A DNA stretch of 54,802 bases from an uncultured Spirochaetales bacterium (GTDB lineage: Bacteria > Spirochaetota > Spirochaetia > CAZAKE01): positions 8,798 to 63,599 of the forward strand of contig CAZAKE010000005.1 in NCBI GenBank assembly GCA_964485495.1. Direction: 5' to 3'. Positions 10,051 to 54,802 of the stretch are shown in pieces. A program made the translations under genes and the position numbers. The notes beneath the pieces were generated by a model. That model ran no database searches and was not told the origin of the DNA. It saw only the letters and a program-made list of their open reading frames with translations. Numbering within the stretch: position 1 is the first letter of the stretch; each line of letters starts with the position of its first letter.

Positions 10051-10722
10051 ATGAACCTTCTGCTCCTGGAGGACGACGACGGGATAGCCGAATTCGTCGA
10101 GAAGGGGTTGCGGGAGGCGGGGTTCGCCGTCGAGAGGGTCGGGAGTGCCGAGGACGCACTTCCGCTCTGTTCGGAAGGCGGCTTCGATGTCGCCGTCGTC
10201 GATATCATGCTGCCGGGGATGGACGGTCTCACCTTCATTGAGACCATCCGGCGTCATGGGGTCTCGATGCCGATCCTCATCCTGAGTGCCCGGCAGACGG
10301 TTGACGACAGGGTGAAGGGCCTTCGGGCGGGCGGCGACGACTATCTTACCAAGCCGTTCGCGTTTACCGAGCTCCTCGCCAGAATACAGGCCCTCCTCCG
10401 CAGATCCGGCGGCGTGGTATCGGCAACGACACTGTCCGCGGACGACCTTACGGTGGACCTGCTGACGCGAGAGGTCACCCGGAACGGAAAGCCGATCGAA
10501 CTCCAACCCCGGGAGTTCTCGCTGCTCGAATACCTGCTCAGGAACAAGGGGCAGGTTCTGCCCAAGACCATGATCATGGAGCACGTCTGGGGGTACGATT
10601 TCGATCCACAGACCAACGTCGTCGACGTGCTGGTCTCCAGACTCCGCTCGAAGATCGATCGGGGATTCGAGAAGAAGCTGATCCAAACCGTACGCGGCGT
10701 CGGCTACGCCCTCAAAGGGTGA
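10051..10722 (+). CDS. OmpR-family winged-helix response regulator
   Basis: MNLLLLEDDDGIAEF...VAVVDIMLPGMDG (REC). C-terminal trans_reg_C LTxREFSLLEYLLRNKGQVLPKTMIMEHVWGYDFDPQTNVVDVLVSRLRSKID. Confidence 0.9.
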   Translation: MNLLLLEDDDGIAEFVEKGLREAGFAVERVGSAEDALPLCSEGGFDVAVVDIMLPGMDGLTFIETIRRHGVSMPILILSARQTVDDRVKGLRAGGDDYLTKPFAFTELLARIQALLRRSGGVVSATTLSADDLTVDLLTREVTRNGKPIELQPREFSLLEYLLRNKGQVLPKTMIMEHVWGYDFDPQTNVVDVLVSRLRSKIDRGFEKKLIQTVRGVGYALKG

Positions 10723-27437: not shown

Positions 27438-28264
27438 CGATGGGTAGAGACCAGATACCCGACTATGACTGGGAACGGTTGTCCCTGGATGAGTTGCCCG
27501 ACGGGCGGCTCGAAGAGATCCGGCGGCATCCCGAATTCGATACACAACGATCCGCGGCCATGTCCCGGATCCGGCAATCCGATGCCGAACTGCTCGAACG
27601 CTACCCGGCTGATGTGATGGCCACCCGGATCAGGGAACGAATGCAGGTCGAAGAGGTGCGAAACGAAGGGACGCCGGCCTCGGGGGGAAGCATCCTCCGG
27701 ACGGTGGTGGGAAATCCCCGCCTCGCGGCGGGCGTGGCGGCCCTGCTGCTGATTGCCGTCGGAATCATGCCCCTGATGTGGCTGAATACCCCGGTCACGC
27801 CGGAGCGGCAGCCGGAGAGCACCCGCATCAAGGGGCTGAAACCGGATATCCGTATCTATCGCGAGCAGGGCGGAGATCCGGAACTCCTGCATGAGAATGA
27901 CCTGGTGAGAGAGAACGACCTCCTGCAGATCGGCTATGTCTCGGGAGGATGGAAACACGGCGCCATCTTCTCCATCGACGGAAACGGTGCGGTGACCCTG
28001 CACTACCCGGCCGATATCTTCTCTACGACACACTTGTCTCCGGAGGGAGAGATCAAACTCCCCTACTCCTATCAACTCGATAGCGCACCGGAGTTCGAAC
28101 GGTTCTTTTTTGTGCTCTCGGACAAGGAATTCTCCGTGAACGAGATACTATTATACGCGGAGGAGTTGGTCGAATCACGCAGCGTGCGCTCTATCCGCTC
28201 CTTGAGTCTGCCCCGAGGGTACGAGCAGGCTTCTATCGTCTTGAAGAAGGGGGCGTCGGAGTGA
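27434..28264 (+). CDS. transmembrane anti-sigma factor (cognate to upstream ECF sigma)
   Basis: ATGA overlap with the sigma stop. Cytoplasmic N-terminal anti-sigma segment. Single TM LAAGVAALLLIAVGIMPLMW. Periplasmic C-terminal domain. Confidence 0.75.
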   Translation: MTMGRDQIPDYDWERLSLDELPDGRLEEIRRHPEFDTQRSAAMSRIRQSDAELLERYPADVMATRIRERMQVEEVRNEGTPASGGSILRTVVGNPRLAAGVAALLLIAVGIMPLMWLNTPVTPERQPESTRIKGLKPDIRIYREQGGDPELLHENDLVRENDLLQIGYVSGGWKHGAIFSIDGNGAVTLHYPADIFSTTHLSPEGEIKLPYSYQLDSAPEFERFFFVLSDKEFSVNEILLYAEELVESRSVRSIRSLSLPRGYEQASIVLKKGASE

Positions 28265-28284
28265 ACCACCCAACGAACGGGAAA

Positions 28285-30927
28285 ATGAAGTATTTGGGAA
28301 TTTGGGGATCGAAGATCCTCTTCACGGCCTGTTTCATACTACTCACGCTGCTCACGACCACCGGACTTTCCGCCGCGACGCCGGATTCCGCCCTAAGACG
28401 ATTCGCCCTGTTCGTCGGCGCCAACGACGGCGGTGACGACAGGGTGCGCTTGCTCTACGCCGGTACCGACGCCGAGTCGATGCAGGCGGTCCTGTCCGAG
28501 ATGGGAGGACTCGAGCGGAACGATATGCTGCTGCTCGAGGATCCGGATCTTTCCACCTTCGAACAGAGTTTCGAGGACCTTCGGACGCGAATCCTGACGG
28601 CGAAAGACAACTCCCGCAGGATAGAGTTCATTCTCTACTACTCGGGACACTCCGACGAGAACGGACTCATGCTCGGTGGGGAGTTGTTTCCCTACAAGGC
28701 ACTGCGCGAACGAATCAACGAGATGAACGCGGACGTCAACATCGCGATCCTCGATTCGTGCTCCTCCGGGTCATTCACCCGCCTCAAGGGCGGCCGGCGC
28801 AGAGCGCCTTTCATGATCGACGAATCGGTGAAGACTCAAGGATACGCGTTTCTCACCTCCAGCTCGGAGAACGAGGCGGCACAGGAGTCGGACGCGATCC
28901 AGAGCTCCTTCTTCACCCACTACCTCATCTCCGCCCTGCGAGGCGCCGCTGACGCCACCCAGGACGGGAAGATCACGTTGATGGAGGCGTACACCTACGC
29001 CTCGGAGGAGACGCTGGCCCGGACCGAGAATACCCAGGCCGGGGCGCAGCACCCCTCCTACGACATTAAACTCACCGGCTCGGGAGACCTGGTCCTCACC
29101 GACCTCAGGTCTCCCTCCGCCGGCATGGTGATCGACAAGGATATCGTCGGGAGGCTCTTCATCCGAAACAAGGCCGGGAGGCTGATGGCTGAGATCCGAA
29201 AGCTCGAAGGCATTCCGATGATCGTGGCGTTGCCTCCGGGGATGTATACGGTCACCTTAGAGGATGAGGAGATGATGAGCGAAGCCGGAATCACCCTCAC
29301 CGGCACCCGGATGGTGAGGGTCTCTCAGTCGGACTTCTTCGAGAAGGTTCGGGAGTTCGCGGTGGCACGGGGCGATGTCGAGGAGAGAGAAGACGAAGTA
29401 GCGGAGATCGCCGAGGAGTCGGATCCCGTTGCAGGAGACGCTCCGGCGGCCGGAGGGGCCGCGAAGCGGGCCGCGGAGGCCGCACAACGGGCCCTATCAC
29501 GATTGGACGAGGAGTTGAAGGCGGCGGAGGATGGTGCGGAGATGAAGGCCGAGGCCGCGGCGAGTGCAGGGGTATCCGCCGCAGGCGACGCCGACGCAAC
29601 GACAGGCAGACAGGTCGGAGAGAAACCGGCGCGAGCAGAGAAACCGGATGCTTCGAGTCCCAATCGGCAGGCGAGACCTTCGGTTTCCACGGACCCGGTG
29701 GAGGGGGGGATATCCAGGAGGGTGTTGAGCTTCCAGTTCGTACCGGGCCTTCCATTCAACAACTCCCGTCACATCGTGACCGCCTTCGGCCTCAATTTCC
29801 TCGGTCGCTCCTACAGGATCGAAGGCGCCGAAATCGGGTTCATGAATATCGTCATCGAAGATGTCCGCGGATTCCAGGGGGGAGTACTCTTCAACCTGGT
29901 AGGCGGCGGCGTGTACGGCGGGCAGGCGGCCTCGCTGTTCAACATCGCCCACAGCTCCAAGGCGGCCCAGGTGGCCGGCCTCTTCAACATCTCCAACGAG
30001 AGCACCTCCGTACTGCAGGCGGCGGGTGTATTCAACCTGGCCTCACGGGGTGGAATGATCGGCGCGCAGGCGGCGGGGATATTCAACATCACCGGCGGTA
30101 CGGTCCGAGGGGTTCAGACGGCAGGCGTGTTCAACATCAACAACGGAGGGACACTGGGGCTGCAGGGAGCCGGGGTGTTCAACATCGCCGACGATACTGT
30201 CGGAGGTCAGATATCCGGAATCTTCAACATCGCCGGCGGCGGCATGACCGGTATCCAGGGAGCCTCAGTCTTCAACTCGGCCAGAGACGCAAAGGGCATC
30301 CAAATGAGTCTGGTGAACATCTCCGCCAACGTGGCCGGGGCTCAGGTGGGACTCATCAACATCGCCAAGAACGTCAAGGGAACTCAGATCGGGCTCATCA
30401 ATATCAACCGGGACATGAAGGGTGTTCCTATCGGCATCATCAACATATCCAAGAGCGGCATCTTCAACTTCGGTTCCTGGTACGATGAACGGGGACTCAT
30501 CTACATGGGCCTTCAGTTCGGTTCGAAGTATCTCTTTACCACGGTGTACGCCGGAATGCCGTATGAGGATCCACTCCAGACCATCGCGGCCGGAGTCGGC
30601 GGCGGTGTTCACGTACCCATCGGTCCCTTCTTCGCCGAACTCGAGGCATCGGTCCAGGAGGTCGCCCAGGGCACGATATTCAAGGAAACCTTCGTACATG
30701 TCTTCACCCCGCAGATGAACAAGGCGGTCTATCCGGTGGCCAAGGTAACCGGCGGGATCACCCTCTTCGGAAGCTTGTCGATATTCGGCGGCCTGGTGAT
30801 GGACATCCACGTGCCGGGTTACACGGTCAAGAGCGGACTGGACTATCCGAGAGATCCGTGGGTGCTCAACTTCCCGTCCCGCGACGTGGAGCTGCACCCG
30901 AGATGGTTCGCGGGGCTCAGGTTCTAA
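28285..30927 (+). CDS. secreted caspase-domain (peptidase C14, orthocaspase-like) protein with Ala/Glu-rich linker and ~13 C-terminal '[VIL]FNI-x(3-6)-G-x-Q-x-AG' tandem repeats plus beta-rich C-terminal domain
   Basis: Signal/TM ILFTACFILLTLLTTTGLSA. Caspase His/Cys dyad motifs LYYSGHSDENG and ILDSCSSGS. Repeats read directly (GVFNI..., 29881-30480). 4-nt overlap (GTGA) with the anti-sigma stop; start taken at ATG 28285. Confidence 0.8.
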   Translation: MKYLGIWGSKILFTACFILLTLLTTTGLSAATPDSALRRFALFVGANDGGDDRVRLLYAGTDAESMQAVLSEMGGLERNDMLLLEDPDLSTFEQSFEDLRTRILTAKDNSRRIEFILYYSGHSDENGLMLGGELFPYKALRERINEMNADVNIAILDSCSSGSFTRLKGGRRRAPFMIDESVKTQGYAFLTSSSENEAAQESDAIQSSFFTHYLISALRGAADATQDGKITLMEAYTYASEETLARTENTQAGAQHPSYDIKLTGSGDLVLTDLRSPSAGMVIDKDIVGRLFIRNKAGRLMAEIRKLEGIPMIVALPPGMYTVTLEDEEMMSEAGITLTGTRMVRVSQSDFFEKVREFAVARGDVEEREDEVAEIAEESDPVAGDAPAAGGAAKRAAEAAQRALSRLDEELKAAEDGAEMKAEAAASAGVSAAGDADATTGRQVGEKPARAEKPDASSPNRQARPSVSTDPVEGGISRRVLSFQFVPGLPFNNSRHIVTAFGLNFLGRSYRIEGAEIGFMNIVIEDVRGFQGGVLFNLVGGGVYGGQAASLFNIAHSSKAAQVAGLFNISNESTSVLQAAGVFNLASRGGMIGAQAAGIFNITGGTVRGVQTAGVFNINNGGTLGLQGAGVFNIADDTVGGQISGIFNIAGGGMTGIQGASVFNSARDAKGIQMSLVNISANVAGAQVGLINIAKNVKGTQIGLININRDMKGVPIGIINISKSGIFNFGSWYDERGLIYMGLQFGSKYLFTTVYAGMPYEDPLQTIAAGVGGGVHVPIGPFFAELEASVQEVAQGTIFKETFVHVFTPQMNKAVYPVAKVTGGITLFGSLSIFGGLVMDIHVPGYTVKSGLDYPRDPWVLNFPSRDVELHPRWFAGLRF
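29881..30480 (+). repeat. in-frame tandem repeat region (~45-51 nt units) encoding the FNI/GxQxAG repeats
   Basis: Repeated ...gtgttcaacatc...ggcgcgcaggcggcgggg... units read directly. Protein repeats LFNIAHS../LFNISNE../VFNLASR../IFNITGG../VFNINNG../VFNIADD../IFNIAGG../VFNSARD../LVNISAN../LINIAKN../LININRD../IINISKS. Confidence 0.85.
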
Positions 30928-35095: not shown

Positions 35096-36382
35096 ATGGA
35101 GAACGACAACAAGAAAAATACGATCAAGAAGATCGTGCTGGCCTATTCCGGCGGGCTGGACACATCGATCATCATACCTTGGCTGAAGGAGAACTACTCC
35201 GGTGCCGAGGTGATCGGCGTATGCACCAATGTAGGCCAGGACGAGGATTGGGAACACATGGATGAGAAAGCCAAGAAATCCGGTGCCTCCAAGCTCTACA
35301 TTCGGGACATCAGGGACGAGTTCGCCCGGGAGTTCCTGTTTCCCATGGTCCGCGCCGGAGCGGTGTACGAGGGCAAGTACCTTCTCGGTACCTCAATCGC
35401 CAGACCCCTGCAGGCCAAGCACGTGGCCGAGGTCGCCCTGGCCGAGGGCGCCGACGCCGTAGCTCACGGATGCACCGGCAAAGGCAACGATCAGGTGCGG
35501 TTCGAACTCACCTTCAAGGCATTGGCCCCCAATCTGGAGATCATCGCTCCGTGGAGGATCTGGGAGATCAGGTCGAGAGAGGCGGCCATCGAATACGCTA
35601 AATCCAAGAACATCCCCCTCGGAGACATCTCCAAGACAAACATCTACTCCCGGGACTGGAACATATGGCACATGAGCCACGAGGGCGGCGACCTGGAAAA
35701 CCTCTGGAACCGCCCCACGGAGGAGATGTTCCGGCTCTCCAAGTCTCCGAAAGACGCTCCCGACGCGGAGACCGAAATCACCATCGACTTCGAACAGGGT
35801 TTCGCGGTAGGCCTGAACGGCGAGACTATGGAACCGGTGAAGCTGCTGAATGAACTCAACAGGATCGGAGGTGAGAACGGCATCGGCCGAGCGGATATGG
35901 TGGAGACCAGGATCGTCGGCATGAAGAGCCACGGTATCTACGAGACTCCTGCCGGGACGATCCTGCATACCGCCCTCCGGGAGCTCGAGATGATCACCAT
36001 GGAATCGGACACCCTGGCATTCAAGAACAGCATGGCAATCCGGTACGCCGACCTGGTCTATACCGGAAAGTGGTTCACCACCTTCCGTGAGTCGATGGAC
36101 GCCTTCCTGAACACCGCATGCAAGTGGGTCACCGGGTCCATTCGGCTGGTCCTCTACAAGGGCAACATCATCGTGTCCGGCCGCAAGTCGGAATACTCCC
36201 TCTATTTGGAAGATCTTGCATCTTTCGGGGAGAGTACCTATGATCACAAGGACGCGACGGGATTCATCAACCTGTATGGCCTGTCTACCGGGGTGACCTC
36301 GATGGTGCACAGGAGAATACCCGGAAAGCGCGGTGAGGCGCAGGACATGACCGAGATTGCCTCCACCTTTCACGAACGGTAA
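35096..36382 (+). CDS. argG: argininosuccinate synthase
   Basis: KIVLAYSGGLDTSIIIPWLKE (PP-loop). ...GCTGKGNDQVRFE. GGAGAG SD upstream. Confidence 0.92.
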   Translation: MENDNKKNTIKKIVLAYSGGLDTSIIIPWLKENYSGAEVIGVCTNVGQDEDWEHMDEKAKKSGASKLYIRDIRDEFAREFLFPMVRAGAVYEGKYLLGTSIARPLQAKHVAEVALAEGADAVAHGCTGKGNDQVRFELTFKALAPNLEIIAPWRIWEIRSREAAIEYAKSKNIPLGDISKTNIYSRDWNIWHMSHEGGDLENLWNRPTEEMFRLSKSPKDAPDAETEITIDFEQGFAVGLNGETMEPVKLLNELNRIGGENGIGRADMVETRIVGMKSHGIYETPAGTILHTALRELEMITMESDTLAFKNSMAIRYADLVYTGKWFTTFRESMDAFLNTACKWVTGSIRLVLYKGNIIVSGRKSEYSLYLEDLASFGESTYDHKDATGFINLYGLSTGVTSMVHRRIPGKRGEAQDMTEIASTFHER

Positions 36383-36471
36383 TTCGGAACGGTGAACCGG
36401 AGCCGCCTCCGCCTCATGCGCTGCAGGCGGCTTCACGGTATGCTATTCGTCACGCCGACTCGAGGACCCAT

Positions 36472-36960
36472 ATGAAAATACAAATACGGCCGGCCACGCT
36501 GGCCGACGTAGACGCAATCTTCCAACTGACGAACCGGATGTCCCAGAACGGTTTCATGCTGCCCCGCAGCAAGTACAAGATCGTCACCATGATCACGAAT
36601 TTCATGGTGGCCGAGGCGGTCGTACCGGAGGAGAATGCATCGAGATCTGAGGCTGCAATCATCGGATGCGGCGCCTTCAGTCCGTTGTGGACGGACCTGG
36701 GAGAGATCTGTGCCTTGGCGGTGGATGAGGGGCACCAGGCCAAGGGTATCGGACGCGACCTGGTCAACGCGCTGATAGAGAGGGGCCGTGAACTTCACGT
36801 TCCCGAGATCATGGCGCTGACCTATCAGGTCGAGTTCTTCAAGAAGCTCGGGTTCAAGGTCGCGGATAAGGATAAATTTCCAAGAAAGGTCTGGCGGGAG
36901 TGTCTCGAATGTCCGAAGCTCGAACAGTGCGACGAAACCGCCGTACATCTGTTGCTGTAA
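36472..36960 (+). CDS. GNAT-family N-acetyltransferase, likely short-form N-acetylglutamate synthase given arg-cluster context
   Basis: GNAT motif A (ALAVDEGHQAKGIGRDLV). C-terminal CLECPKLEQC seen in single-domain NAGS. No argJ in the cluster. Confidence 0.55.
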   Translation: MKIQIRPATLADVDAIFQLTNRMSQNGFMLPRSKYKIVTMITNFMVAEAVVPEENASRSEAAIIGCGAFSPLWTDLGEICALAVDEGHQAKGIGRDLVNALIERGRELHVPEIMALTYQVEFFKKLGFKVADKDKFPRKVWRECLECPKLEQCDETAVHLLL

Positions 36961-37005
36961 CCACACATCAAATCGTGAAATGTTTGCGATCGAGGAGGAT
37001 CAATA

Positions 37006-38628
37006 ATGAGCGCTTCATCCCCCAATACCGGCAATCTCGGCTTTCGTGACATCGACACCTGCCCAGAGTTTTCAACCCTGCGGCAGTCGAAACCACCCGC
37101 CGGACTGAAGGAACTGTTGACTTCGGAGCGGATCGCGGACTGTGCGATACTCGCCGGCGGCGGCCTGACCTACAACTACGCGGCGAAACGGGTGGACGAC
37201 ACCGTGCTGGATCTCCTGCAAAGGTTGGCCGAACGGCAACAGCTGATCGAGAAATACCGAGCCCTGGCCGGCGGTGCGGTCATGAATACCGGCGAGGGCA
37301 GAAGAGTACTCCACCACCTGGCCCGCGGACAACTCGCAGGACCTGTCACAGCGGACGGGCGTGACGCCCGGACCTTTTACACAGAGCAGCAGGAGCGGGT
37401 AGCCGCCTTCGCCGAGGACGTCCATGCCGGGAGGATCCACGGGTCTACCGGCAAGAAGTTCGACACGGTCGTGCAGATCGGGATCGGCGGATCGGACCTG
37501 GGTCCCAGGGCCCTCTACCTGGCCTTAGAGCAGTTCGCCGCCGCCACACCCGAGGGCCTGAAGATGCGGGCCCATTTCATCTCCAACGTGGACCCGGACG
37601 ACGCCAACGCGGTCCTTACCGGCCTCGACTTCGAGCGAACCCTGTTCATCGTCGTATCTAAGAGCGGAACCACCCAGGAGACCCTCACCAACCGACAGTT
37701 CGTGTTGGATGCGATGCAGCGTGCGGCAGTTCCCGGGTTACACCCGGGCGCCCACATGATCGCGGTCACCAGCGAGACCAGTCCCCTGGCCAAATCCGAC
37801 GAGTACTCGATGAGCTTCTATATCGACGACTACATCGGCGGTCGGTATTCGTCGACCAGTGCGGTGGGAGGCGTCGTGCTGAGTCTGGCATTCGGCCCTG
37901 GACTTTTCGCCGACCTACTCGCCGGTGCCCACGAGGCCGACGCCGCCGCGCTGGAACCGGTCATCAGGAAAAACGCCGCCCTCATGGACGCCATGATCGG
38001 CATCTACGAGCGGAACGTGCTGGGGTATCCGGTGACGGCAATCCTCCCCTACAGCCAGGCCCTCTCCAGGTTCCCCGCGCATCTGCAACAACTCGATATG
38101 GAGAGCAACGGAAAGCAGGTCAACCGAGAGGGGAAACCCCTCGACTACGCCACGGGGCCGGTGATCTTCGGAGAGCCCGGCACCAACGGCCAGCACTCCT
38201 TCTTCCAACTACTCCATCAGGGAACCGACGTGGTACCCCTTCAATTCATCGGGTTCCGGAACTCCCAGACGCGGCCCGACGAACCTGATGAAGAGGGAAA
38301 GACCAGCCGAACGAAGCTCGCGGCCAATCTCGCGGCCCAGATCGTCGCCTTCGCCCTCGGCAAGGAGGCCGAAGACCCGAACAAAAACTTCCCCGGCGGC
38401 CGCCCGTCGAGCCTGATCCACGGCGATACACTGACTCCGGCCGCCCTCGGGGCGCTCCTCGCCCACTACGAGAACAAGGTGATGTTCCAGGGCTTGGCGT
38501 GGAACATCAACTCCTTCGATCAGGAGGGAGTACAGCTCGGAAAGGTGCTGACGAAACAGATACTCTCGGGGGAGAAACTCGATCCGGTGCTGCAGGCGTA
38601 CACGAGACTGCTGGGGGTGACAGATTAA
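37006..38628 (+). CDS. pgi: glucose-6-phosphate isomerase
   Basis: Long-type PGI. DTVVQIGIGGSDLGP (SIS GIGGS). FDQEGVQLGK C-terminal family motif. Confidence 0.9.
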   Translation: MSASSPNTGNLGFRDIDTCPEFSTLRQSKPPAGLKELLTSERIADCAILAGGGLTYNYAAKRVDDTVLDLLQRLAERQQLIEKYRALAGGAVMNTGEGRRVLHHLARGQLAGPVTADGRDARTFYTEQQERVAAFAEDVHAGRIHGSTGKKFDTVVQIGIGGSDLGPRALYLALEQFAAATPEGLKMRAHFISNVDPDDANAVLTGLDFERTLFIVVSKSGTTQETLTNRQFVLDAMQRAAVPGLHPGAHMIAVTSETSPLAKSDEYSMSFYIDDYIGGRYSSTSAVGGVVLSLAFGPGLFADLLAGAHEADAAALEPVIRKNAALMDAMIGIYERNVLGYPVTAILPYSQALSRFPAHLQQLDMESNGKQVNREGKPLDYATGPVIFGEPGTNGQHSFFQLLHQGTDVVPLQFIGFRNSQTRPDEPDEEGKTSRTKLAANLAAQIVAFALGKEAEDPNKNFPGGRPSSLIHGDTLTPAALGALLAHYENKVMFQGLAWNINSFDQEGVQLGKVLTKQILSGEKLDPVLQAYTRLLGVTD

Positions 38629-38779
38629 CGCGGAACATTTGTACTACCGACTGAGTCGATGATTTGGCCCGGCCGGCCGCATGATTGCCGAACAATTCGC
38701 GGTTACAGTAAGAAATAAAAAAACCCCTCAGGGAAAAGGAGGTAACAAAACCCTGAGGGGAACTGTAAAAAGGAGGTCG

Positions 38780-38911
38780 ATGAAAAAAGTTTCCTATGCC
38801 GCAATCACAATAGAAACAACATTCACCGTTTTAAGGTTACAACAAAAGTATGAAAAAAAGCAAAACGATGCACTGTTGCTGCGGGGTTCCCATCCGCACA
38901 TCGCCATATAA
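38780..38911 (+). CDS. possible small ORF (43 aa) with strong SD in the AT-rich island
   Basis: AAAAAGGAGGT 5 nt before ATG. MKKVSYAAITIETTFTVLRLQQKYEKKQNDALLLRGSHPHIAI. No homology recognised. Could instead be part of an sRNA. Confidence 0.25.
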   Translation: MKKVSYAAITIETTFTVLRLQQKYEKKQNDALLLRGSHPHIAI

Positions 38912-39039
38912 TACATTTATAGTATATCCACACCGTTTCATTAATTCAAGTGTTTTCTGATATTTTTCTCATTTTCGAGATTTTTGTCTATCGCCGATCT
39001 GCGAATCGACAATCACCACGGAAAATGGTGTACCCCGAA

Positions 39040-40371
39040 TCAGGTTTCTCCGCAGGAATTGTCCATCACTACCGGCTGACCCGTAGTCTCGAGCACGTCG
39101 CGCCACAGATCGCTCTCGGGGTCCACCACGTTTCGCCGAGATACCGCCACCTCGGTGGGGATATGGACGAAGGTGTCGTGTACGAGGCTGATCAGCATGC
39201 GAGTCCTGCCGGACATGGCGGCATGCACCGCGTGGTTACCGAGGCGGGCGCAGTAGATGGAGTCGTTCGGGTTGGCGGGCATGCTGCGGATCATGTAGCT
39301 GGGATCGATATACTTGAGGTTCACCTCCATGCCGGTGCGCTTGAAGTGGTCCGCGATCATGTCTCTGAGAAAGATGCCGATTGTCGGCAGCATCTTGTTG
39401 CCGGACGCGTCGGTCTGATCGGTGCCTTCCAGCAGGTTCTGTCCCGCGCCTTCGGCCACCAGGATTACCGCGTGTCCGCGGCTCTTGAGACGCTGCTTAA
39501 GGTGAGAAAAGAGTCCGCACTCCCCGTCCAATTCGAAGGGTATCTCGGGGATGAGTACGAAGTTCACCTCATTGGATGCCAGCGCGGTATGCGTGGCAAT
39601 GAATCCGGATTCGCGCCCCATCACCTTCACAAGCCCGATGCCGTTGATGGCGTCGTGGGCCTCTACATGCGCGCTGGATACCGCCTCGATGGCCTTGGAC
39701 ACCGCGGTCTCGAATCCGAACGAGCGTTGTATGAAGGCGAGGTCGTTGTCGATGGTCTTGGGGATTCCGATTACCACCACGTTCTGACCCCTCGACTCGA
39801 GTTCCTTGGCGATGGCCAGGGAGCCTCGCTGCGTGCCGTCGCCGCCGATGGTGAAGAGTATGTTGATGTTCATCCGCTGTATCGAATCCGCGAGTGAGGA
39901 GAGGTCGGCTCCGCCGCGGGACGACCCGAGGACCGTGCCTCCTCTCTTGTGGATGTCATCCACGAACGCGGGATTCAGGGAAATCGGTGCGAGATCGTAC
40001 TCCGGGAGGAGCCCCCGGTAGCCGTTTTGGATCCCGGTGATACGTTTCACTCCGTACCGATACCAGAGACACCGTACGATTGCCCGGATGACGTTGTTGA
40101 GTCCGGGACAGAGGCCGCCGCAGGTAACCACGCCGGCGTGGACCTGGCTGGGAGGAAAGTGGATCAACTCCCGGGGGCCCGCCTTCTCCAGGAGCCTGCT
40201 TTTATCGTACGACTCACACGGGGCATCCGGCATCACGTCGATGTCGTACAGGATGAACTCGTCATCCCGGACATAGTTGGCCAGTTTGTCACCATAGGTG
40301 GTGGACATCTTGATCGGCGATTTCGTCTTCGCTTCTCCGATCCTCGGAATGGAGAAATCAAGGTTCGGCAT
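39040..40371 (-). CDS. pfk: 6-phosphofructokinase, long PfkA-family type (ATP- vs PPi-dependence not resolved)
   Basis: GGLCPGLNNVIRAIV...TIGGDGTQRG...MGRESGFIA. Start at MPNLDF (ATG 40371) with GAGAGGAAA SD. The ORF-track N-terminal QDLQDLQDL extension is translation of the upstream 9-bp repeat array. Confidence 0.85.
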   Translation of the reverse strand: MPNLDFSIPRIGEAKTKSPIKMSTTYGDKLANYVRDDEFILYDIDVMPDAPCESYDKSRLLEKAGPRELIHFPPSQVHAGVVTCGGLCPGLNNVIRAIVRCLWYRYGVKRITGIQNGYRGLLPEYDLAPISLNPAFVDDIHKRGGTVLGSSRGGADLSSLADSIQRMNINILFTIGGDGTQRGSLAIAKELESRGQNVVVIGIPKTIDNDLAFIQRSFGFETAVSKAIEAVSSAHVEAHDAINGIGLVKVMGRESGFIATHTALASNEVNFVLIPEIPFELDGECGLFSHLKQRLKSRGHAVILVAEGAGQNLLEGTDQTDASGNKMLPTIGIFLRDMIADHFKRTGMEVNLKYIDPSYMIRSMPANPNDSIYCARLGNHAVHAAMSGRTRMLISLVHDTFVHIPTEVAVSRRNVVDPESDLWRDVLETTGQPVVMDNSCGET

Positions 40372-40390
40372 GTAGTGTTTCCTCTCTTCC

Positions 40391-40470
40391 AATAAATCCA
40401 ATAAATCCTGTAAATCCTGTAAATCCTGTAAATCCTGTAGATTTTGTAGATCCTGGTATTGTAGATATTG
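40391..40470. repeat. array of ~9 degenerate 9-bp tandem repeats in the pfk promoter / 5' region
   Basis: Direct read: aataaatcc x2, tgtaaatcc x3, tgtagattt, tgtagatcc, tggtattg, tagatattg. Minus-strand unit GGATTTACA. Confidence 0.85.
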
Positions 40471-40533
40471 TTTGTACCGATTATGCGCTGCCGACTCAGG
40501 ATACGAGAAAAAACCACCCCACGCAAGTCCTTT

Positions 40534-40690
40534 CAACAATTCGAAAAGCAAATTGAAAGGGTGACGTATATCGGTTCCTTCTTCTGCGATACCGGCATCG
40601 TTCCTCGTCGACGCCAGAGAAACGGTATGAAATACAGAGAATTGTGGCTATTTCAACTATAGCGGTAGCCATAGTTGGATAGCTGAGGCG
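40534..40690 (+). repeat. intergenic conserved element copy 1 (divergent), upstream of galE
   Basis: Shares CAAttCGAAAAG..GAAAGGG..CGTATATC.GTTCCTTyTTCTGCGATA....TCGTTCCTCGTCGACGCCAGAGAAA with copies 2 and 3. 3' hairpin CAACTATaGCGGTAGcCATAGTTG differs from copies 2 and 3. Confidence 0.7.
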
Positions 40691-40783
40691 TGGGCATTTA
40701 CATTTCCCCCACCGCCGGGTACCTTCCATGGATAGAGCGTGTGACGAAAATAGAAACGGTAGATAGACAGAAGGAGATATTCG

Positions 40784-41767
40784 ATGAGCATGAAGGTGTT
40801 GGTAATCGGCGGCGCAGGATATATCGGCAGCCATGTCGTGCGGGCGTTTCTCGACCGGGGCTACCGGGTGTCGGTGTTCGACAACCTCTCGTCCGGACTG
40901 CGGGAGAACCTGTTCGACGAGTGTGCGTTTATCCATGGGGATATCCTGCGGTCCGATTCATTGGAAGAGGCCATGTCCGACGGCGTCGACGCCCTGGTAC
41001 ACCTCGCAGCCTTCAAGGCCGCCGGGGAATCGATGCTCAAGCCCGAGAAATACTCCGTCAACAACATCACGGGGACCCTGAATATCCTGAACGCCGCCGC
41101 CAAATGCGGGGTGCGGCGGATCGTCTTCTCCTCTTCGGCGGCGGTGTACGGGATGCCCGAGTATCTGCCCATCGACGAGAAGCACCCGACGAATCCGATT
41201 AACTATTACGGCTTCACCAAACTCGAGATCGAACGGTTCCTCGGCTGGTACGACCGCCTCAAACAGGTTCGCTTCGCGTCGCTGCGCTACTTCAACGCCG
41301 CCGGATACGATCCGGCGGGACGGGTGCGCGGCTTGGAGCAAAACCCCGCCAACCTGTTACCCATCATCATGGAGGTAGCCGTGGGAAGCCGGGAACGCCT
41401 CGGGATCTTCGGCGACGACTACGATACTCCGGATGGTACCTGTATCAGGGACTACATCCACGTGAACGATCTGGCCTCGGCCCACGTGATGGGACTCGAG
41501 TATATCGACCGGCAGGATTCCTCACTCACCGTGAACTTAGGCACCGGGTCCGGCATCAGCGTGAAGGAGATGCTCGAGGCGGCACGTCGCATCACCGGCA
41601 GGGAGATCCCCGCGGACGTCACCGATCGGCGGCCCGGGGATCCGGACGAACTGGTAGCCTCGGCCGAAGAAGCCGGCCGGCTCCTCGGCTGGAAACCCGT
41701 ATCGAGCGATCCGGACGTACTCGTCCGGTCAACCTGGGACGCCTACAAGCGGAGTCTCGGCCTGTAG
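40784..41767 (+). CDS. galE: UDP-glucose 4-epimerase
   Basis: MKVLVIGGAGYIGSH (Rossmann GxxGxxG). YxxxK catalytic motif region. ...NLGTGSGISV. GGAGAT SD-like upstream. Confidence 0.9.
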   Translation: MSMKVLVIGGAGYIGSHVVRAFLDRGYRVSVFDNLSSGLRENLFDECAFIHGDILRSDSLEEAMSDGVDALVHLAAFKAAGESMLKPEKYSVNNITGTLNILNAAAKCGVRRIVFSSSAAVYGMPEYLPIDEKHPTNPINYYGFTKLEIERFLGWYDRLKQVRFASLRYFNAAGYDPAGRVRGLEQNPANLLPIIMEVAVGSRERLGIFGDDYDTPDGTCIRDYIHVNDLASAHVMGLEYIDRQDSSLTVNLGTGSGISVKEMLEAARRITGREIPADVTDRRPGDPDELVASAEEAGRLLGWKPVSSDPDVLVRSTWDAYKRSLGL

Positions 41768-41969
41768 CGGCCTCTATCCCGATTCACGCCGACTCGACCT
41801 TCCGGCGCAGGGCTTCGATCTCGGTGCCGAAGATCTTCGCCATCTTGGCGTGGGAGAACCAGGTGAACAGGGTGCGGCGGACATCCGCATGCTGATGTCG
41901 ATCAGATCGAATTCGGCGGTAAAAAGGGGGGTATCTCCCTTCAGCATGTCCACCAGGAAATACCCATGG

Positions 41970-42123
41970 CAGCAATTCGAAAAGAAAATAGAAAGGGCGG
42001 CGTATATCAGTTCCTTTTCTGCGATATCGACTTCGTACCTCGTCGAATCGCCACGAAAAGGCATAAAACACGGAGTGATCATGCACATTCCAAATGTAGC
42101 TATTGCTACATTTGGAATTGCTG
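41970..42123 (+). repeat. intergenic conserved element copy 2, upstream of the M20 peptidase-GpgS-ABC operon
   Basis: About 90% identical to copy 3 over ~150 nt. Ends in a perfect 14-bp hairpin ATTCCAAATGTAGC-tatt-GCTACATTTGGAAT. Confidence 0.8.
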
Positions 42124-42280
42124 TACCCATAGTCCGCGCTCTACCACATAGGTTCCATCGTGACAACTCGCGAGATCACACCGGAAATATGAGAAATTCC
42201 GTAGCTCATTGCACCGGAGCACGATGATGCGGTAAAATAGGAACGACTAAGAGATGTATAGGGATGTATAGGAAAGAAAT

Positions 42281-43453
42281 ATGACGAAAGAGTTTGAAGA
42301 GATCGTCACCGATCTGCCGGGAATCAGGAGTCGGCTCGAGTCGATTCGCGACGTCATCCTGGCGAACCTGGTGATGATCGGTGAAATTCCGGCACCCACC
42401 TTCGAAGAACACAATCGCCGGGAGTTCCTGGTAAATCGCTTCACCGAGTATCACCTGCTGAACTGTTCCACCGATGAGGCCGGCAACGCGCTGGGTATCC
42501 TCCCCGGAGAAGACGGCGAGCGGAATATCCTGGTTGTCGCCCACCTGGACAGCAACTTCGACGACACCGTCGACCATACCATCAGCGTCGACACCAACAC
42601 CATCACCGGTCCGGGGGTCGGCGACAATTCGCTGGGGTTAGCCGCCGTCGCCACAATCCCAAGAGCGCTGGAACATCTGGGAATCAAGCTGAAGTCGAAC
42701 CTGATCCTGATGGGCTCATCGAAGAGTCTCGGCCGAGGGAACATCGAGGGGTTGCGGTTCTTCTTGGAGAACACCGACATCCCCATCACCACCGGCGTCT
42801 GTATCGAGGGGGTGAAACTCGGACGAATCAGCTACTCCTCCATCGGTATGATGCGTTGCCAACTCAACATCAAGGTTCCTGAGGAGTACGATTGGACCCG
42901 ATTCGGCGCCGTCGGTGCCGTGGTGACCATCAACGAGGTGATCAACCGGATCCTGGAGATCCCCCTACCCAAGCGGCCGCGGACGAGTATCGTCCTCGGC
43001 TCGGTACTGGGCGGCACCTCCTTCAATACCATCGCCACCGAGGCATCCATCCGGTTCGAGATCCGGTCGGAGTCCGGTTCGATGGTCAAGGATATCGGGA
43101 CGGAGATCGAGAATATCGCCGCCGAGGTGGCCTCCCATTCGGGGGCCGAGGTGTTCTTCAACATCTTCGCCCAGCGTGAACCCGGAGGCATCAAGTATGC
43201 CCATCCCCTGGCCATGACGGCCCGTGAACTGTTGGAGGGGTTGGGGGTTACCCCCAGAATCACGCCGAGTACCTCCGAACTATCGGCGTTTATCGACAAG
43301 GGAATACCGGCACTCACCCTCGGAATCACCGACGGCGAGAACATGAACCGCAATGACGAGACCATCGAGATCGAACCGATATACTCCGGCATGGCACAAC
43401 TGATCGGCCTGCTATTGTCGATCGACAGGGGGCTTTGCGATGACAAAGATTGA
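42281..43453 (+). CDS. M20-family metallopeptidase / deacylase (ArgE/DapE/peptidase T family)
   Basis: VVAHLD (HxD metal ligand). GPGVGDN (second Asp ligand). Dimerisation-domain pattern. Conserved C-terminal His region. Substrate not inferable. Confidence 0.65.
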   Translation: MTKEFEEIVTDLPGIRSRLESIRDVILANLVMIGEIPAPTFEEHNRREFLVNRFTEYHLLNCSTDEAGNALGILPGEDGERNILVVAHLDSNFDDTVDHTISVDTNTITGPGVGDNSLGLAAVATIPRALEHLGIKLKSNLILMGSSKSLGRGNIEGLRFFLENTDIPITTGVCIEGVKLGRISYSSIGMMRCQLNIKVPEEYDWTRFGAVGAVVTINEVINRILEIPLPKRPRTSIVLGSVLGGTSFNTIATEASIRFEIRSESGSMVKDIGTEIENIAAEVASHSGAEVFFNIFAQREPGGIKYAHPLAMTARELLEGLGVTPRITPSTSELSAFIDKGIPALTLGITDGENMNRNDETIEIEPIYSGMAQLIGLLLSIDRGLCDDKD

Positions 43454-53389: not shown

Positions 53390-54622
53390 ATGCGTCTCTT
53401 TGCACCGTTCTCATTCGTGCTTCCCACCCGCATCGAATTCGGCTCCGGAATCTCGGAGAGACTGCCGGATGTGCTACGGGAATCTGGGCTCCGCCGCCCG
53501 TTGGTGGTGACCGACCCGGGATACCTGACTACCTCCGGGTTCGAACGGATCCGTGCCTGCTTGGACGAAGCCGGAATCGGATACGAAATTTTCTCCGACA
53601 TCGAACCGAATCCTAAGGACCGGAACGTATCGGCCGGTGCCGAAGCGGTGCTGTCCATGAAGGCCGACTGCCTGGTGGCAATCGGCGGTGGCAGCCCCAT
53701 GGATTGCGCCAAGGCCTGCTCCGCAGTTGCCGCGGGAGCGGTGTTGGAGAACGCGAAAGATGCTGCCGGTCGCACATCATCGAATGTACTCAGATTTCCG
53801 GCACACTACCGGGACCCGCAAAACATCCCCGGATCACCCCTCCCCCTCATCACGATACCCACCACCGCCGGCACCGGGAGCGAGGTCACCTTCAGCGCCG
53901 TCATCACAGACACCGTAGAATCGTACAAGTATACCATCAAGTCTCCCCGGATCGCTCCTATGATTGCCCTGGTGGACCCGGTCTTGACACACTCGATGCC
54001 GCCGTCCCTCACCGCGGCCACGGGCATGGACGCCCTGACCCATGCCGTGGAGGCCTATACGGCCCTGGCCGCGGAGCCCATCGCGGACGCCTGCGCCCTG
54101 GCCGCCGTCACCCACATCGCACGGCACCTCCGGAGAGCCGTCTCCGACGGCACCGATTCGGATGCCCGGGAGGGTATGATGATGGGCAGCCTCCTGGCGG
54201 GCCTGGCCTTCAGCCACTCCGACGTCGCCGCGGTGCACTGCATCGCCGAAGCCCTGGGCGGCATGTACGACCTGCCCCACGGCCTCTGCAACGCGATATT
54301 CCTGCATCCGGTGATGAAGTTCAACCTGGAGTACTGCACCGAACGCTACGCCGACATCGGCCGGGTCTGGCGTCAAGGAGCGCCGGGCATGGGAACCGAC
54401 ACCATCTCGTCGTCAGAAACCTACGACCTGGCCGAACAGGCGGTGGCGACGGTCAAGCAGCTGGCCCGGGAGGTGGGACTGCCGTCCTTCTCGGACCTGA
54501 AGGTTCCGAAATCCGACTATCCCGCCATCGCCCGGAAATCCGCGGCCAACGGCAGCAACCCGGACAATCCGCGGCTCATGTCGGAGGAGGAGTACCTCGA
54601 GATCCTCGAATCATTGGGATGA
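53390..54622 (+). CDS. iron-containing (group III) alcohol dehydrogenase
   Basis: GGGSPMDCAKA (GGGS NAD motif). Metal-binding His cluster (HAVEAYT, HCIAEALGG..HG). GGGAGGTG SD 9 nt before ATG 53390. Confidence 0.85.
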   Translation: MRLFAPFSFVLPTRIEFGSGISERLPDVLRESGLRRPLVVTDPGYLTTSGFERIRACLDEAGIGYEIFSDIEPNPKDRNVSAGAEAVLSMKADCLVAIGGGSPMDCAKACSAVAAGAVLENAKDAAGRTSSNVLRFPAHYRDPQNIPGSPLPLITIPTTAGTGSEVTFSAVITDTVESYKYTIKSPRIAPMIALVDPVLTHSMPPSLTAATGMDALTHAVEAYTALAAEPIADACALAAVTHIARHLRRAVSDGTDSDAREGMMMGSLLAGLAFSHSDVAAVHCIAEALGGMYDLPHGLCNAIFLHPVMKFNLEYCTERYADIGRVWRQGAPGMGTDTISSSETYDLAEQAVATVKQLAREVGLPSFSDLKVPKSDYPAIARKSAANGSNPDNPRLMSEEEYLEILESLG

Positions 54623-54648
54623 GGCGGTCAAACGTATCCTACTGGGTG

Positions 54649-54800
54649 CAGCAATTCGAAGAGTAAGTAGAAAGTAAGACGTTAATCAGTTCCTTTTCTG
54701 CGATATCGACTTCGTTCCTCGTCGACGCCAGAGAAAAGGCATAAAATACAGAGTGATCATGCACATTCCAAATGTAGCTACTGCTACATTTGGAATTGCT
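54649..54800 (+). repeat. intergenic conserved element copy 3, immediately after the ADH stop; runs to the window edge
   Basis: Near-identical to copy 2 including the hairpin ATTCCAAATGTAGC-tact-GCTACATTTGGAAT. Confidence 0.8.
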
Positions 54801-54802
54801 TA

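What the first reader, a model, noticed from the sequence alone, without database searches (positions are those of the whole stretch)
40534..42123. Three same-orientation copies of a ~150-nt conserved intergenic element, each ending in a different perfect hairpin, in front of sugar-metabolism genes
Copies lie at 40534-40690 (upstream of galE), 41970-42123 (upstream of the M20 peptidase-gpgS-ABC operon) and 54649-54800 (after the ADH gene, at the window end). They share a 5' block: CAgCAATTCGAAAAG.AAAtAGAAAGGG..CGTATATC.GTTCCTTTTCTGCGATATCGACTTCGT.CCTCGTCGA..CGCCA.GAAAAGGCATAAAA.AC.GAGTGATCATGCACA. All then end in a perfect hairpin: ATTCCAAATGTAGC-N4-GCTACATTTGGAAT in copies 2 and 3, and CAACTATaGCGG-TAGcCATAGTTG in copy 1. 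So the hairpin is preserved while its sequence is replaced. This pattern points to conserved RNA structure rather than a protein operator. Copies 1 and 2 directly flank galE as direct repeats. All three sit 5' of plus-strand genes. Possibilities are a cis-regulatory leader/riboswitch-like RNA, a small RNA family, or a REP/MITE-like mobile repeat. The ORFs overlapping it in the six-frame track (41774-42227, 53704-54666 tail) look spurious.
Basis: seen in the sequence. Interest (0 to 1): 0.7.

Follow-up and report, generated by a model that had tools for sequence, protein, structure and literature searches.

The report
Small non-autonomous transposon (MITE) copies
The three repeated 150-nt intergenic elements are copies of a miniature inverted-repeat transposable element (a small transposon with no transposase gene of its own) in an uncultured mat spirochaete, which is an ordinary kind of bacterial repeat and not a riboswitch or regulatory leader.

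Summary
The three copies are real (nhmmer E 1e-44 to 1e-51), AT-rich (40-46% GC against 58%) and intergenic. They carry the marks of a DNA transposon. The ends are imperfect 17-bp terminal inverted repeats (CAGCAATTCGAAAAGTA / CAGCAATTCCAAATGTA, 13-14 of 17). Each well-preserved copy is flanked by a 9-bp target-site duplication that differs from copy to copy: 8/9 for copy 2 and 8/9 for copy 3 (completed from a longer contig). A fourth copy, found on another contig of the same organism, has a perfect 9/9 duplication. No reading frame is kept between copies. Contigs from several assemblies break or switch neighbourhood at the element, as expected for a dispersed repeat. Position does not fit a cis-regulatory RNA: copy 3 lies between convergent genes and copy 4 is antisense to both neighbours. 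There is no Rfam match and no promoter or terminator consensus. However, the hairpin's inner arm is a third copy of the terminal repeat, and all the covariation comes from one lineage. The parent insertion sequence was not found. Verdict: a lineage-specific new member of a well-known kind (MITE), of low interest.

The parts
40534..40685 (+). Copy 1: old, diverged MITE copy (69-73% identical to the others) in the divergent PFK<->galE intergenic region; no recognisable target-site duplication; 3' hairpin at 40646-40685 with changed sequence
   Evidence: PFK 39040-40371(-) and galE 40784-41767(+) by Pfam
41961..41969 (.). Left target-site duplication of copy 2 (TACCCATGG)
   Evidence: matches 42124-42132 at 8 of 9
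41970..42123 (+). Copy 2: 154-bp MITE between galE and the M20 peptidase gene (start 42281)
   Evidence: TIR 14/17
41970..41986 (+). 5' terminal inverted repeat of copy 2 (CAGCAATTCGAAAAGAA)
   Evidence: 14/17 match to the reverse complement of 42107-42123; none of 300,000 random window segments reached 14/17, and P(>=13/17) = 3.7e-5
42013..42061 (+). Internal stem-loop of copy 2 (CCTTTTC-TGCGAT-ATCGAC ... GTCGA-ATCGC-GAAAAGG)
   Evidence: helices 1 and 2; 87-96% of cells paired across 4 copies, no two-sided changes
42083..42121 (+). Terminal palindrome of copy 2: inner arm GCA(C)ATTCCAAATGTAGC (a third, direct copy of the TIR motif), loop TATT, outer arm GCTACATTTGGAATTGC (the 3' TIR)
   Evidence: (I2)
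42124..42132 (.). Right target-site duplication of copy 2 (TACCCATAG)
54640..54648 (.). Left target-site duplication of copy 3 (TACTGGGTG); the right one (AACTGGGTG) starts at 54802 and continues beyond the window (seen in L058 11413-11421)
54649..54801 (+). Copy 3: 153-bp MITE, 26 nt after the Fe-ADH stop (54622); the window/contig ends at its 3' boundary; the next gene (L058 11439-13049) is on the minus strand, so the site lies between convergent genes

Best explanation
[quoted passage not shown] It is a 153-154-bp, AT-rich, non-coding, non-autonomous DNA transposon, present in many copies in the chromosome of an uncultured spirochaete from microbial mats. Shown: it ends in imperfect 17-bp inverted repeats (consensus xAGCAATTCSAAAWGTA). 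Each well-preserved copy is flanked by a 9-bp direct duplication of a different target sequence. It sits in intergenic DNA in either orientation. Assemblies break or switch neighbourhood at its ends. Inferred: it was inserted by a transposase supplied in trans by a full-length insertion sequence with matching ends. That enzyme would bind the terminal repeats, cut the target with a 9-bp stagger and leave the duplication after gap repair. The 3' terminal palindrome holds a third copy of the terminal-repeat motif and is most simply read as an extra transposase-binding site or a structural feature of the transposon end. Copies then decay neutrally: copies 2-4 are 87-90% identical with 0-1 mismatch in their duplications, and copy 1 is about 70% identical with its duplication gone. 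Any effect on neighbouring genes would be a by-product of where a copy landed.
For: Three window copies, plus a fourth on another contig of the same organism (nhmmer E 1e-43 to 1e-51). TIRs match at 13-14 of 17 in copies 2-4; P(>=13/17) is 3.7e-5 in random window segments and 1.5e-5 in shuffles. The 9-bp duplications are AAGTGAGTG/AAGTGAGTG (9/9, copy 4), TACCCATGG/TACCCATAG (8/9, copy 2) and TACTGGGTG/AACTGGGTG (8/9, copy 3). The chance of an 8/8 flank match within 16 offsets is 7e-4, and of >=7/8 is 0.011. The duplicated sequences differ between copies, so they come from the target. There is no conserved reading frame, and 1-nt indels separate the copies. GC is 0.40-0.46 against 0.583 for the window. 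Repeat-type assembly behaviour: L001 is 99.85% identical to the window up to base 42124, the end of copy 2, then continues into a different neighbourhood; L002 and L003 end inside copy 2; the window ends at the boundary of copy 3. Orientation and context vary: divergent (copy 1), tandem sense (copy 2), convergent (copy 3), tandem antisense (copy 4). Folds are strong on both strands, z -4 to -6, which is a classic MITE feature (PMC3184786). Size, TIR length, TSD length and intergenic location all fall within published MITE definitions, and spirochaete genomes are reported to average about 145 MITEs (PMC11602168).
Against: No autonomous parent IS or transposase with matching ends was found. There is none in the window or related loci (Pfam) and no solo ends. 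No empty site or presence/absence polymorphism could be shown. All three contigs carrying galE have copies 1 and 2, the one sister-organism contig stops short of the copy 4 site, and more distant relatives lack synteny. Only 4 independent copies (5 with the L001 junction) were available. Copy 1 has neither a clear TSD nor a good TIR (9/17). It nevertheless keeps its hairpin through compensatory changes, which hints at some constraint beyond simple decay.
Confidence: 0.88

Rival explanations
1. A cis-regulatory RNA leader or riboswitch-like element. It would be transcribed as the 5' UTR of the downstream sugar-metabolism gene, with the terminal hairpin acting as a terminator, anti-terminator or sequestering stem.
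For: Copies 1 and 2, and the L001 junction copy, lie sense-oriented 98-157 nt upstream of plus-strand genes. Predicted structure is strong. The terminal hairpin shows 4 two-sided changes.
Against: Copy 3 lies between convergent genes with no downstream gene to regulate. Copy 4 is antisense to both neighbours. The flanking genes are functionally unrelated: galE, M20 peptidase, Fe-ADH, AAA ATPase, HtrA, MBL hydrolase. There is no Rfam match at gathering threshold or at E<=1. No terminator-like U-run or sigma-70 promoter was found. The 9-bp target-site duplications and TIRs have no place in a leader model.
Confidence: 0.02
2. A MITE that has also been taken over for an RNA- or DNA-structure function, for example an sRNA, an mRNA-stabilising or processing hairpin, or an insulator. 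This would resemble Correia elements or the sRNAs derived from Coxiella QMITEs. On this reading the hairpin is kept by selection and not by chance.
For: Copy 1 is about 70% identical to the others and has lost its TSD and its TIR match, yet it retains a 17-18-bp hairpin through 4 two-sided changes. Folding z-scores are -4 to -6. MITE-borne promoters, sRNAs and terminator-like motifs are documented (PMC6382973, PMC10969869).
Against: All the covariation comes from one sequence, so possibly one event or a recombinant subfamily. Palindromes can be kept without selection, by template-switch correction of quasipalindromes (established knowledge, not tested here). The inner hairpin arm is a copy of the TIR motif, which points to the transposition machinery. 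There is no promoter or terminator consensus and no expression data.
Confidence: 0.07
3. A REP/BIME-type palindromic repeat, or an IS200/IS605-type palindrome-associated element (PATE), moved as single-stranded DNA by a tyrosine (Y1/RAYT) transposase that recognises the hairpin.
For: The element has a conspicuous, conserved subterminal hairpin.
Against: Those elements have neither terminal inverted repeats nor target-site duplications, and REPs are 20-40 bp (PMC3184786, PMC3733652 abstract). Here there are 17-bp TIRs and 9-bp duplications at three of four sites. There is a hairpin at one end only, and no common tetra- or pentanucleotide to the left of the insertions.
Confidence: 0.02
4. Chance similarity, an assembly artefact, or a segmental duplication of intergenic DNA without transposition.
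For: Only a few copies were seen, and one junction (L001) may be an assembly chimera.
Against: The same copies occur in independent assemblies from ENA, JGI and Logan. Similarity stops exactly at the TIR ends in every copy. Flanks are unrelated apart from the 9-bp duplications.
Confidence: 0.01

Closest known systems
Prokaryotic MITEs in general (definitions in PMC3184786 and PMC11602168)
   Same: Size is about 150 bp. The element has TIRs of at least 10-15 bp and a TSD within the 2-10 bp range. It has no transposase gene, occurs in multiple dispersed copies, is intergenic and AT-rich, and folds into stable stem-loops. Spirochaete genomes are reported to be rich in MITEs.
   Different: The sequence is unrelated to anything found in the plasmid, phage, viral, GTDB-representative or JGI metagenome collections. 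The parent IS is unknown. The 3' end carries an extra inverted copy of the terminal repeat, forming a 38-nt palindrome.
MITEAba12 of Acinetobacter (PMC6382973)
   Same: It is a short (113 bp) TIR-bounded element that generates 9-bp target-site duplications. Only some copies still show the duplication (40% there, 3 of 4 here). It lies in AT-rich intergenic sites in either orientation.
   Different: MITEAba12 has a known co-resident parent (ISAba12), a demonstrated transposition event, outward promoters and weak predicted structure (-24 to -27 kcal/mol). Here no parent or mobility event was shown, no promoter consensus was found, and the structure is much stronger (-40 to -53 kcal/mol). The sequences are unrelated.
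Correia elements (CREE/NEMIS) of Neisseria
   Same: They are dispersed intergenic MITEs of about 100-155 bp with TIRs that fold into long hairpins when transcribed. They are the textbook case of a MITE affecting neighbouring gene expression (cited in PMC3184786 and PMC6382973).
   Different: Correia elements duplicate a TA dinucleotide and have 26-bp TIRs (from my own knowledge, not checked here). This element has a 9-bp duplication and 17-bp TIRs, an unrelated sequence and a different phylum.
IS4-family insertion sequences (IS4Sa and IS50 subgroups) as candidate parent
   Same: Table 1 of PMC2266710 gives 5'-CA / 5'-CW ends with direct repeats of 8-10 and 8-9 bp. This element begins with 5'-CA and makes 9-bp duplications.
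   Different: Only these two generic features match. Position 9 of the IS4Sa end consensus (T) is C here. No transposase was found, and other families also make 8-9-bp duplications. This is a lead and not an assignment.

Membership tests
MITE (non-autonomous class II element) | Small size (generally <200 bp; 50-800 bp in prokaryotes) | tested here: met
   152-154 bp in all four copies
MITE (non-autonomous class II element) | Terminal inverted repeats of at least 10-15 bp | tested here: met
   13-14 of 17 in copies 2-4, P about 1e-5 by two nulls; decayed in copy 1 (9/17 in the best register)
MITE (non-autonomous class II element) | Flanking target-site duplication of 2-10 bp that differs between insertion sites | tested here: met
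   9 bp: 9/9 (copy 4), 8/9 (copy 2), 8/9 (copy 3), none (copy 1)
MITE (non-autonomous class II element) | No transposase gene or conserved ORF in the core | tested here: met
   Six-frame translations show no frame conserved between copies, and 1-nt indels separate them. A protein search with all open frames found only a spurious N-terminal extension of a hydrolase gene.
MITE (non-autonomous class II element) | Multiple dispersed, mostly intergenic copies | tested here: met
   4 independent copies, plus a fifth junction, in about 77 kb of this organism's DNA, all intergenic. Genome-wide copy number is not measurable with these tools.
MITE (non-autonomous class II element) | Cognate autonomous IS with matching terminal repeats | tested here: inconclusive
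   None in the sequence held. The collection scans available could not be aimed at a 17-bp degenerate end.
MITE (non-autonomous class II element) | Evidence of mobility (empty versus filled sites) | tested here: inconclusive
   No empty site found: all galE contigs carry copies 1 and 2, the sister-organism contig is too short, and distant relatives lack synteny.
Riboswitch / cis-regulatory leader RNA | Constant sense position in the 5' UTR of the regulated genes | tested here: not met
   Copy 3 lies between convergent genes and copy 4 is antisense
Riboswitch / cis-regulatory leader RNA | Match to a described RNA family | tested here: not met
   Rfam 15: no hit at gathering threshold in the window and none on the element at E<=1
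Riboswitch / cis-regulatory leader RNA | Covariation supporting a conserved structure | tested here: inconclusive
   4 two-sided changes in the terminal hairpin, all in copy 1; none in the internal helices; n = 4 sequences
REP / BIME (RAYT-associated) | 20-40-bp G+C-rich palindrome with no TIR or TSD | tested here: not met
   153 bp, AT-rich, with TIRs and a 9-bp TSD
IS200/IS605-derived PATE | Subterminal hairpins at both ends, no TIR, no TSD, insertion 3' of a fixed short motif | tested here: not met
   Hairpin at one end only; TIR and TSD present; left flanks share no motif
IS4-family-derived MITE | 5'-CA end and a duplication of about 8-10 bp (PMC2266710 Table 1) | tested here: met
   CAGC... 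end and 9-bp TSD; these are generic features shared with other families
IS4-family-derived MITE | Co-resident DDE/YREK transposase gene flanked by the same ends | not testable with these tools

The most novel reading that the evidence does not exclude
The 3' terminal palindrome is made of the terminal repeat plus an inner inverted copy of it, and it is kept through compensatory changes in a copy that has otherwise decayed by about 30%. It could be a functional structure in its own right. One possibility is a hairpin or cruciform that an unusual transposase needs while still making a 9-bp staggered cut. Another is a host-exapted RNA or DNA hairpin (transcript stabiliser, processing site or insulator) spread through the genome by the MITE.
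Probability: 0.1. Interest if true: 0.45.

Novelty: new member of a known kind. Interest (0 to 1): 0.2.

Why it matters
The main value is for annotation. The element explains why contigs of this mat spirochaete break or mis-join at these points. It removes several spurious ORF calls, including a false N-terminal extension of a hydrolase gene. It also warns against reading the repeat as a riboswitch or sRNA. As biology, it adds one lineage-specific family to the many MITEs already reported in spirochaetes. It would be more interesting only if the conserved terminal palindrome proved to have a function of its own, or if the parent transposase turned out to be unusual.

Tried and rejected
(1) Rfam at gathering threshold on the whole window, and at E<=1 on 40350-42300, found nothing on the element.

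(2) Scans for the conserved core TTCTGCGATA-N10-12-CCTCGTCGA gave only chance-level single hits in unrelated taxa: 25 hits in GTDB representative genomes, 29 in JGI metagenome contigs and 2 in IMG/VR. A scan for the terminal 17-mer in IMG/VR gave 9 hits. nhmmer rejected all of them. The family is therefore not detectable in those collections with that pattern.

(3) blastn of the element against the plasmid and phage collections found no match.

(4) A concatenated translation of all open frames of the element was searched against 5.8 billion proteins, to catch spurious ORFs over other copies. It gave one hit (P0001), which led to copy 4.

(5) Empty-site search. The closest galE homologue is only 74% identical. 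An HtrA homologue at 89% identity lies on a contig that ends 31 nt after the gene. More distant galE loci are not syntenic and have no element.

(6) Composite transposon carrying galE between copies 1 and 2: rejected. Copy 2 has its own duplication, and the outer flanks (AAGTCCTTT / TACCCATAG) do not match.

(7) The minus-strand ORF remnant at 41774-41968 as a transposase fragment: no Pfam match.

(8) Protein-coding element: rejected because frame-shifting indels separate the copies.

(9) A literature full-text search for the terminal sequence gave only unrelated primer hits.

(10) The sigma-70 promoter and intrinsic terminator scan of 40200-42400 found none.
Full report
OBSERVATION. An HMM built from them finds each at E 1e-46 to 1e-51 and finds nothing else in the 54.8-kb window. 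They are AT-rich islands, 40-46% GC against 58.3% for the window. Copies 2 and 3 end in a perfect 14-bp stem with a 4-nt loop (I2). With one bulged C, that stem extends to 17 bp. Copy 1 has a hairpin at the same place with a different sequence, one A.C mismatch and an internal loop.

The element begins CAGCAATTCGAAAAGTA, and the reverse complement of its last 17 nt reads CAGCAATTCCAAATGTA. That is a terminal inverted repeat matching at 13-14 of 17 positions in copies 2-4. Only 3.7e-5 of random 153-nt window segments, and 1.5e-5 of shuffles, reach 13/17.

Directly outside these ends lie short direct duplications. Copy 2 has TACCCATGG | element | TACCCATAG. The window stops one base past the end of copy 3. 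A JGI contig carrying the identical Fe-ADH gene (L058, 99.97% identical over 11.4 kb) runs on and shows TACTGGGTG | element | AACTGGGTG.

To find more copies I translated every open frame of the element, joined the pieces into one query and searched the protein database for gene calls that run into other copies. The single hit (P0001) led to contig L059 from the same metagenome. L059 carries a fourth copy with a perfect duplication: AAGTGAGTG | element | AAGTGAGTG.

These results fix the boundaries as CAGCAATTC...GAATTGCT[G/T] and the duplication length as 9 bp. An 8/8 flank match has a chance of 7e-4 even allowing 16 offset combinations, and a >=7/8 match has a chance of 0.011. The duplicated sequences differ from site to site, so they derive from the target and are not part of the element. 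Copy 1 is only 69-73% identical to the others and has no recognisable duplication. That fits an old insertion. Copies 2-4 are 87-90% identical to one another.

DISPERSED-REPEAT BEHAVIOUR. An ENA microbial-mat contig (L001) is 99.85% identical to the window from 35296 to 42124, which is the last base of copy 2 plus one. It then continues into a different neighbourhood (PAS protein, histidine kinase, GH2 glycosidase). The hairpin loop also switches there from TATT to TACT. Two shorter contigs (L002, L003) end inside copy 2, and the window itself ends at copy 3. This is how assemblers treat multi-copy repeats. It also implies at least a fifth insertion site, or a recombination between copies. In total there are four independent copies, plus this junction, in about 77 kb of the organism's DNA.

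CONTEXT AND ORIENTATION.
- Copy 1 lies in the divergent region between PFK (minus strand) and galE.
- Copy 2 lies between galE and an M20-type peptidase, sense to both.
- Copy 3 lies 26 nt after the Fe-ADH stop and 26 nt from the stop of a convergent AAA/PDDEXK_9 ATPase gene, so no gene follows it.
- Copy 4 lies between an HtrA-like protease and an MBL-fold hydrolase and is antisense to both. Its 5' end is 43 nt from the hydrolase start codon, and the right target-site duplication ends 34 nt before it.

The neighbouring genes share no function. This contradicts the statement that all copies sit 5' of plus-strand sugar genes, and with it the leader/riboswitch reading. Rfam has no match at gathering threshold or at E<=1. 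A sigma-70 promoter and intrinsic-terminator scan finds nothing.

CODING POTENTIAL. Four of six frames are open across copy 2. However, 1-nt indels between copies shift the frames and no peptide is conserved. One of them produced a false N-terminal extension of the hydrolase gene in the public gene calls.

STRUCTURE. Both strands fold strongly: -40 to -53 kcal/mol, with z of -4 to -6 for seven of the eight folds and z -1.5 for the plus strand of copy 1. There are two modules: an internal stem-loop (42013-42061 in copy 2) and the terminal palindrome (42083-42121).

The inner arm of the palindrome, GCA(C)ATTCCAAATGTAGC, is a third copy of the terminal-repeat motif, in direct orientation relative to the 5' end. 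The last 38-39 nt therefore look like a minimal IRL-loop-IRR unit.

On the four-copy alignment the terminal hairpin has four pairs changed on both sides, all in copy 1. Only 1 of 500 shuffles reaches this, and the slid-partner controls show none apart from a single pair at slide +3. The internal helices show no two-sided changes.

It is notable that copy 1's 3' end no longer matches its own 5' repeat (9/17) yet still pairs with its inner arm. Possible causes are:
- selection for a DNA or RNA hairpin;
- a second transposase-binding site;
- neutral correction of quasipalindromes by template switching (established knowledge, not tested here);
- copy 1 being a recombinant with a second subfamily. 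The mosaic sharing of internal variant blocks among copies shows that exchange between copies has occurred.

Four sequences cannot separate these.

MECHANISM. Shown: the anatomy of a class II non-autonomous transposon, with TIRs, a 9-bp TSD, no ORF, and multiple intergenic copies in both orientations. Inferred: a transposase encoded elsewhere by a full-length IS with matching ends binds the repeats and inserts the element through a 9-bp staggered cut. Copies then decay. Table 1 of PMC2266710 lists 5'-CA / 5'-CW ends with 8-10-bp repeats for the IS4Sa and IS50 subgroups, which fits generically. Other families also make 8-9-bp duplications, and no transposase was found in the window or related loci. 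The parent therefore stays open.

COMPARISON WITH WHAT IS KNOWN. Published definitions describe a MITE as follows: generally under 200 bp, with TIRs around a core lacking a transposase, flanked by target duplications, and folding into long stem-loops (PMC3184786). In prokaryotes the TIRs are at least 10-15 bp, the TSDs are 2-10 bp and about 90% of copies are intergenic. Spirochaete genomes average about 145 MITEs (PMC11602168). Every defining feature that could be tested is met. The two that could not be settled are a cognate IS and a demonstrated empty site.

MITEAba12 (113 bp, 9-bp TSD retained in 40% of copies, mobilised by ISAba12; PMC6382973) is a close functional analogue with an unrelated sequence. 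REP/RAYT and IS200/IS605-type elements are excluded by the TIRs and TSDs.

The sequence itself was not found in GTDB representative genomes, JGI metagenome contigs, IMG/VR, plasmids or phages. The organism has no close sequenced relative: the best galE homologue is 74% identical, and the neighbours are Spirochaetaceae, Treponema and Marispirochaeta. There is one sister-organism contig at 84-87% nucleotide identity. This is therefore a lineage-specific family.

VERDICT. This is an ordinary bacterial MITE, a new member of a known kind. Interest is low (0.2). The one open curiosity is the conserved terminal palindrome.

Noticed in passing
window 40393-40455: A 9-bp tandem repeat (TAAATCCTG, 7 units) lies just upstream of the PFK start codon in the PFK<->galE divergent region. 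The ENA contig L001 has exactly one unit fewer, so the array varies in copy number between samples.
   Followed up: partly
window 29922-30238: Periodic 45/48-nt repeats (CAGG.GCCGG...TTCAACATCGCC) lie inside the 888-aa ORF 28261-30927, which has a caspase (Peptidase_C14) domain. This is a coding repeat array in a large protein.
   Followed up: no
window 41774-41968 (minus strand): A short ORF remnant lies between galE and copy 2. It reads as two pieces in different frames (MLKGDTPLFTAEFDLIDIS... / ...HADVRRTLFTWFSHAKMAKIFGTEIEALRRKVESA*), so it looks frameshifted. It has no Pfam match. Copy 2 inserted at its upstream edge.
   Followed up: partly
L001 6821-11240: Past the end of copy 2, the ENA contig continues into a different neighbourhood: a 119-aa PAS protein with a PYP-like '...VAPC...' stretch (Pfam PAS, E 9e-5), a HisKA kinase and a GH2 glycosidase. 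This is either a real rearrangement between element copies in another strain or a k127 assembly chimera through the repeat.
   Followed up: partly
L058 11439-13049 (minus strand; just beyond the window's 3' end): A 536-aa AAA ATPase with a C-terminal PD-(D/E)XK nuclease domain (AAA_22/AAA_35 + PDDEXK_9) converges on the Fe-ADH gene, with copy 3 in the 50-nt gap between them.
   Followed up: no
L059 9940-10812: The public gene calls for the MBL-fold hydrolase (284 and 290 aa) start inside the MITE. The likely true start is the ATG at 10096 (238 aa, with a full Lactamase_B match). This is an example of a MITE creating a false N-terminal extension.
   Followed up: yes
L072 (Logan SRR28370467): This contig comes from a sister organism. 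It is 84-87% identical at the nucleotide level to L059 7311-9774, and its HtrA is 89% identical. It is the only close relative seen, and it is too short to show whether the copy 4 site is empty.
   Followed up: partly
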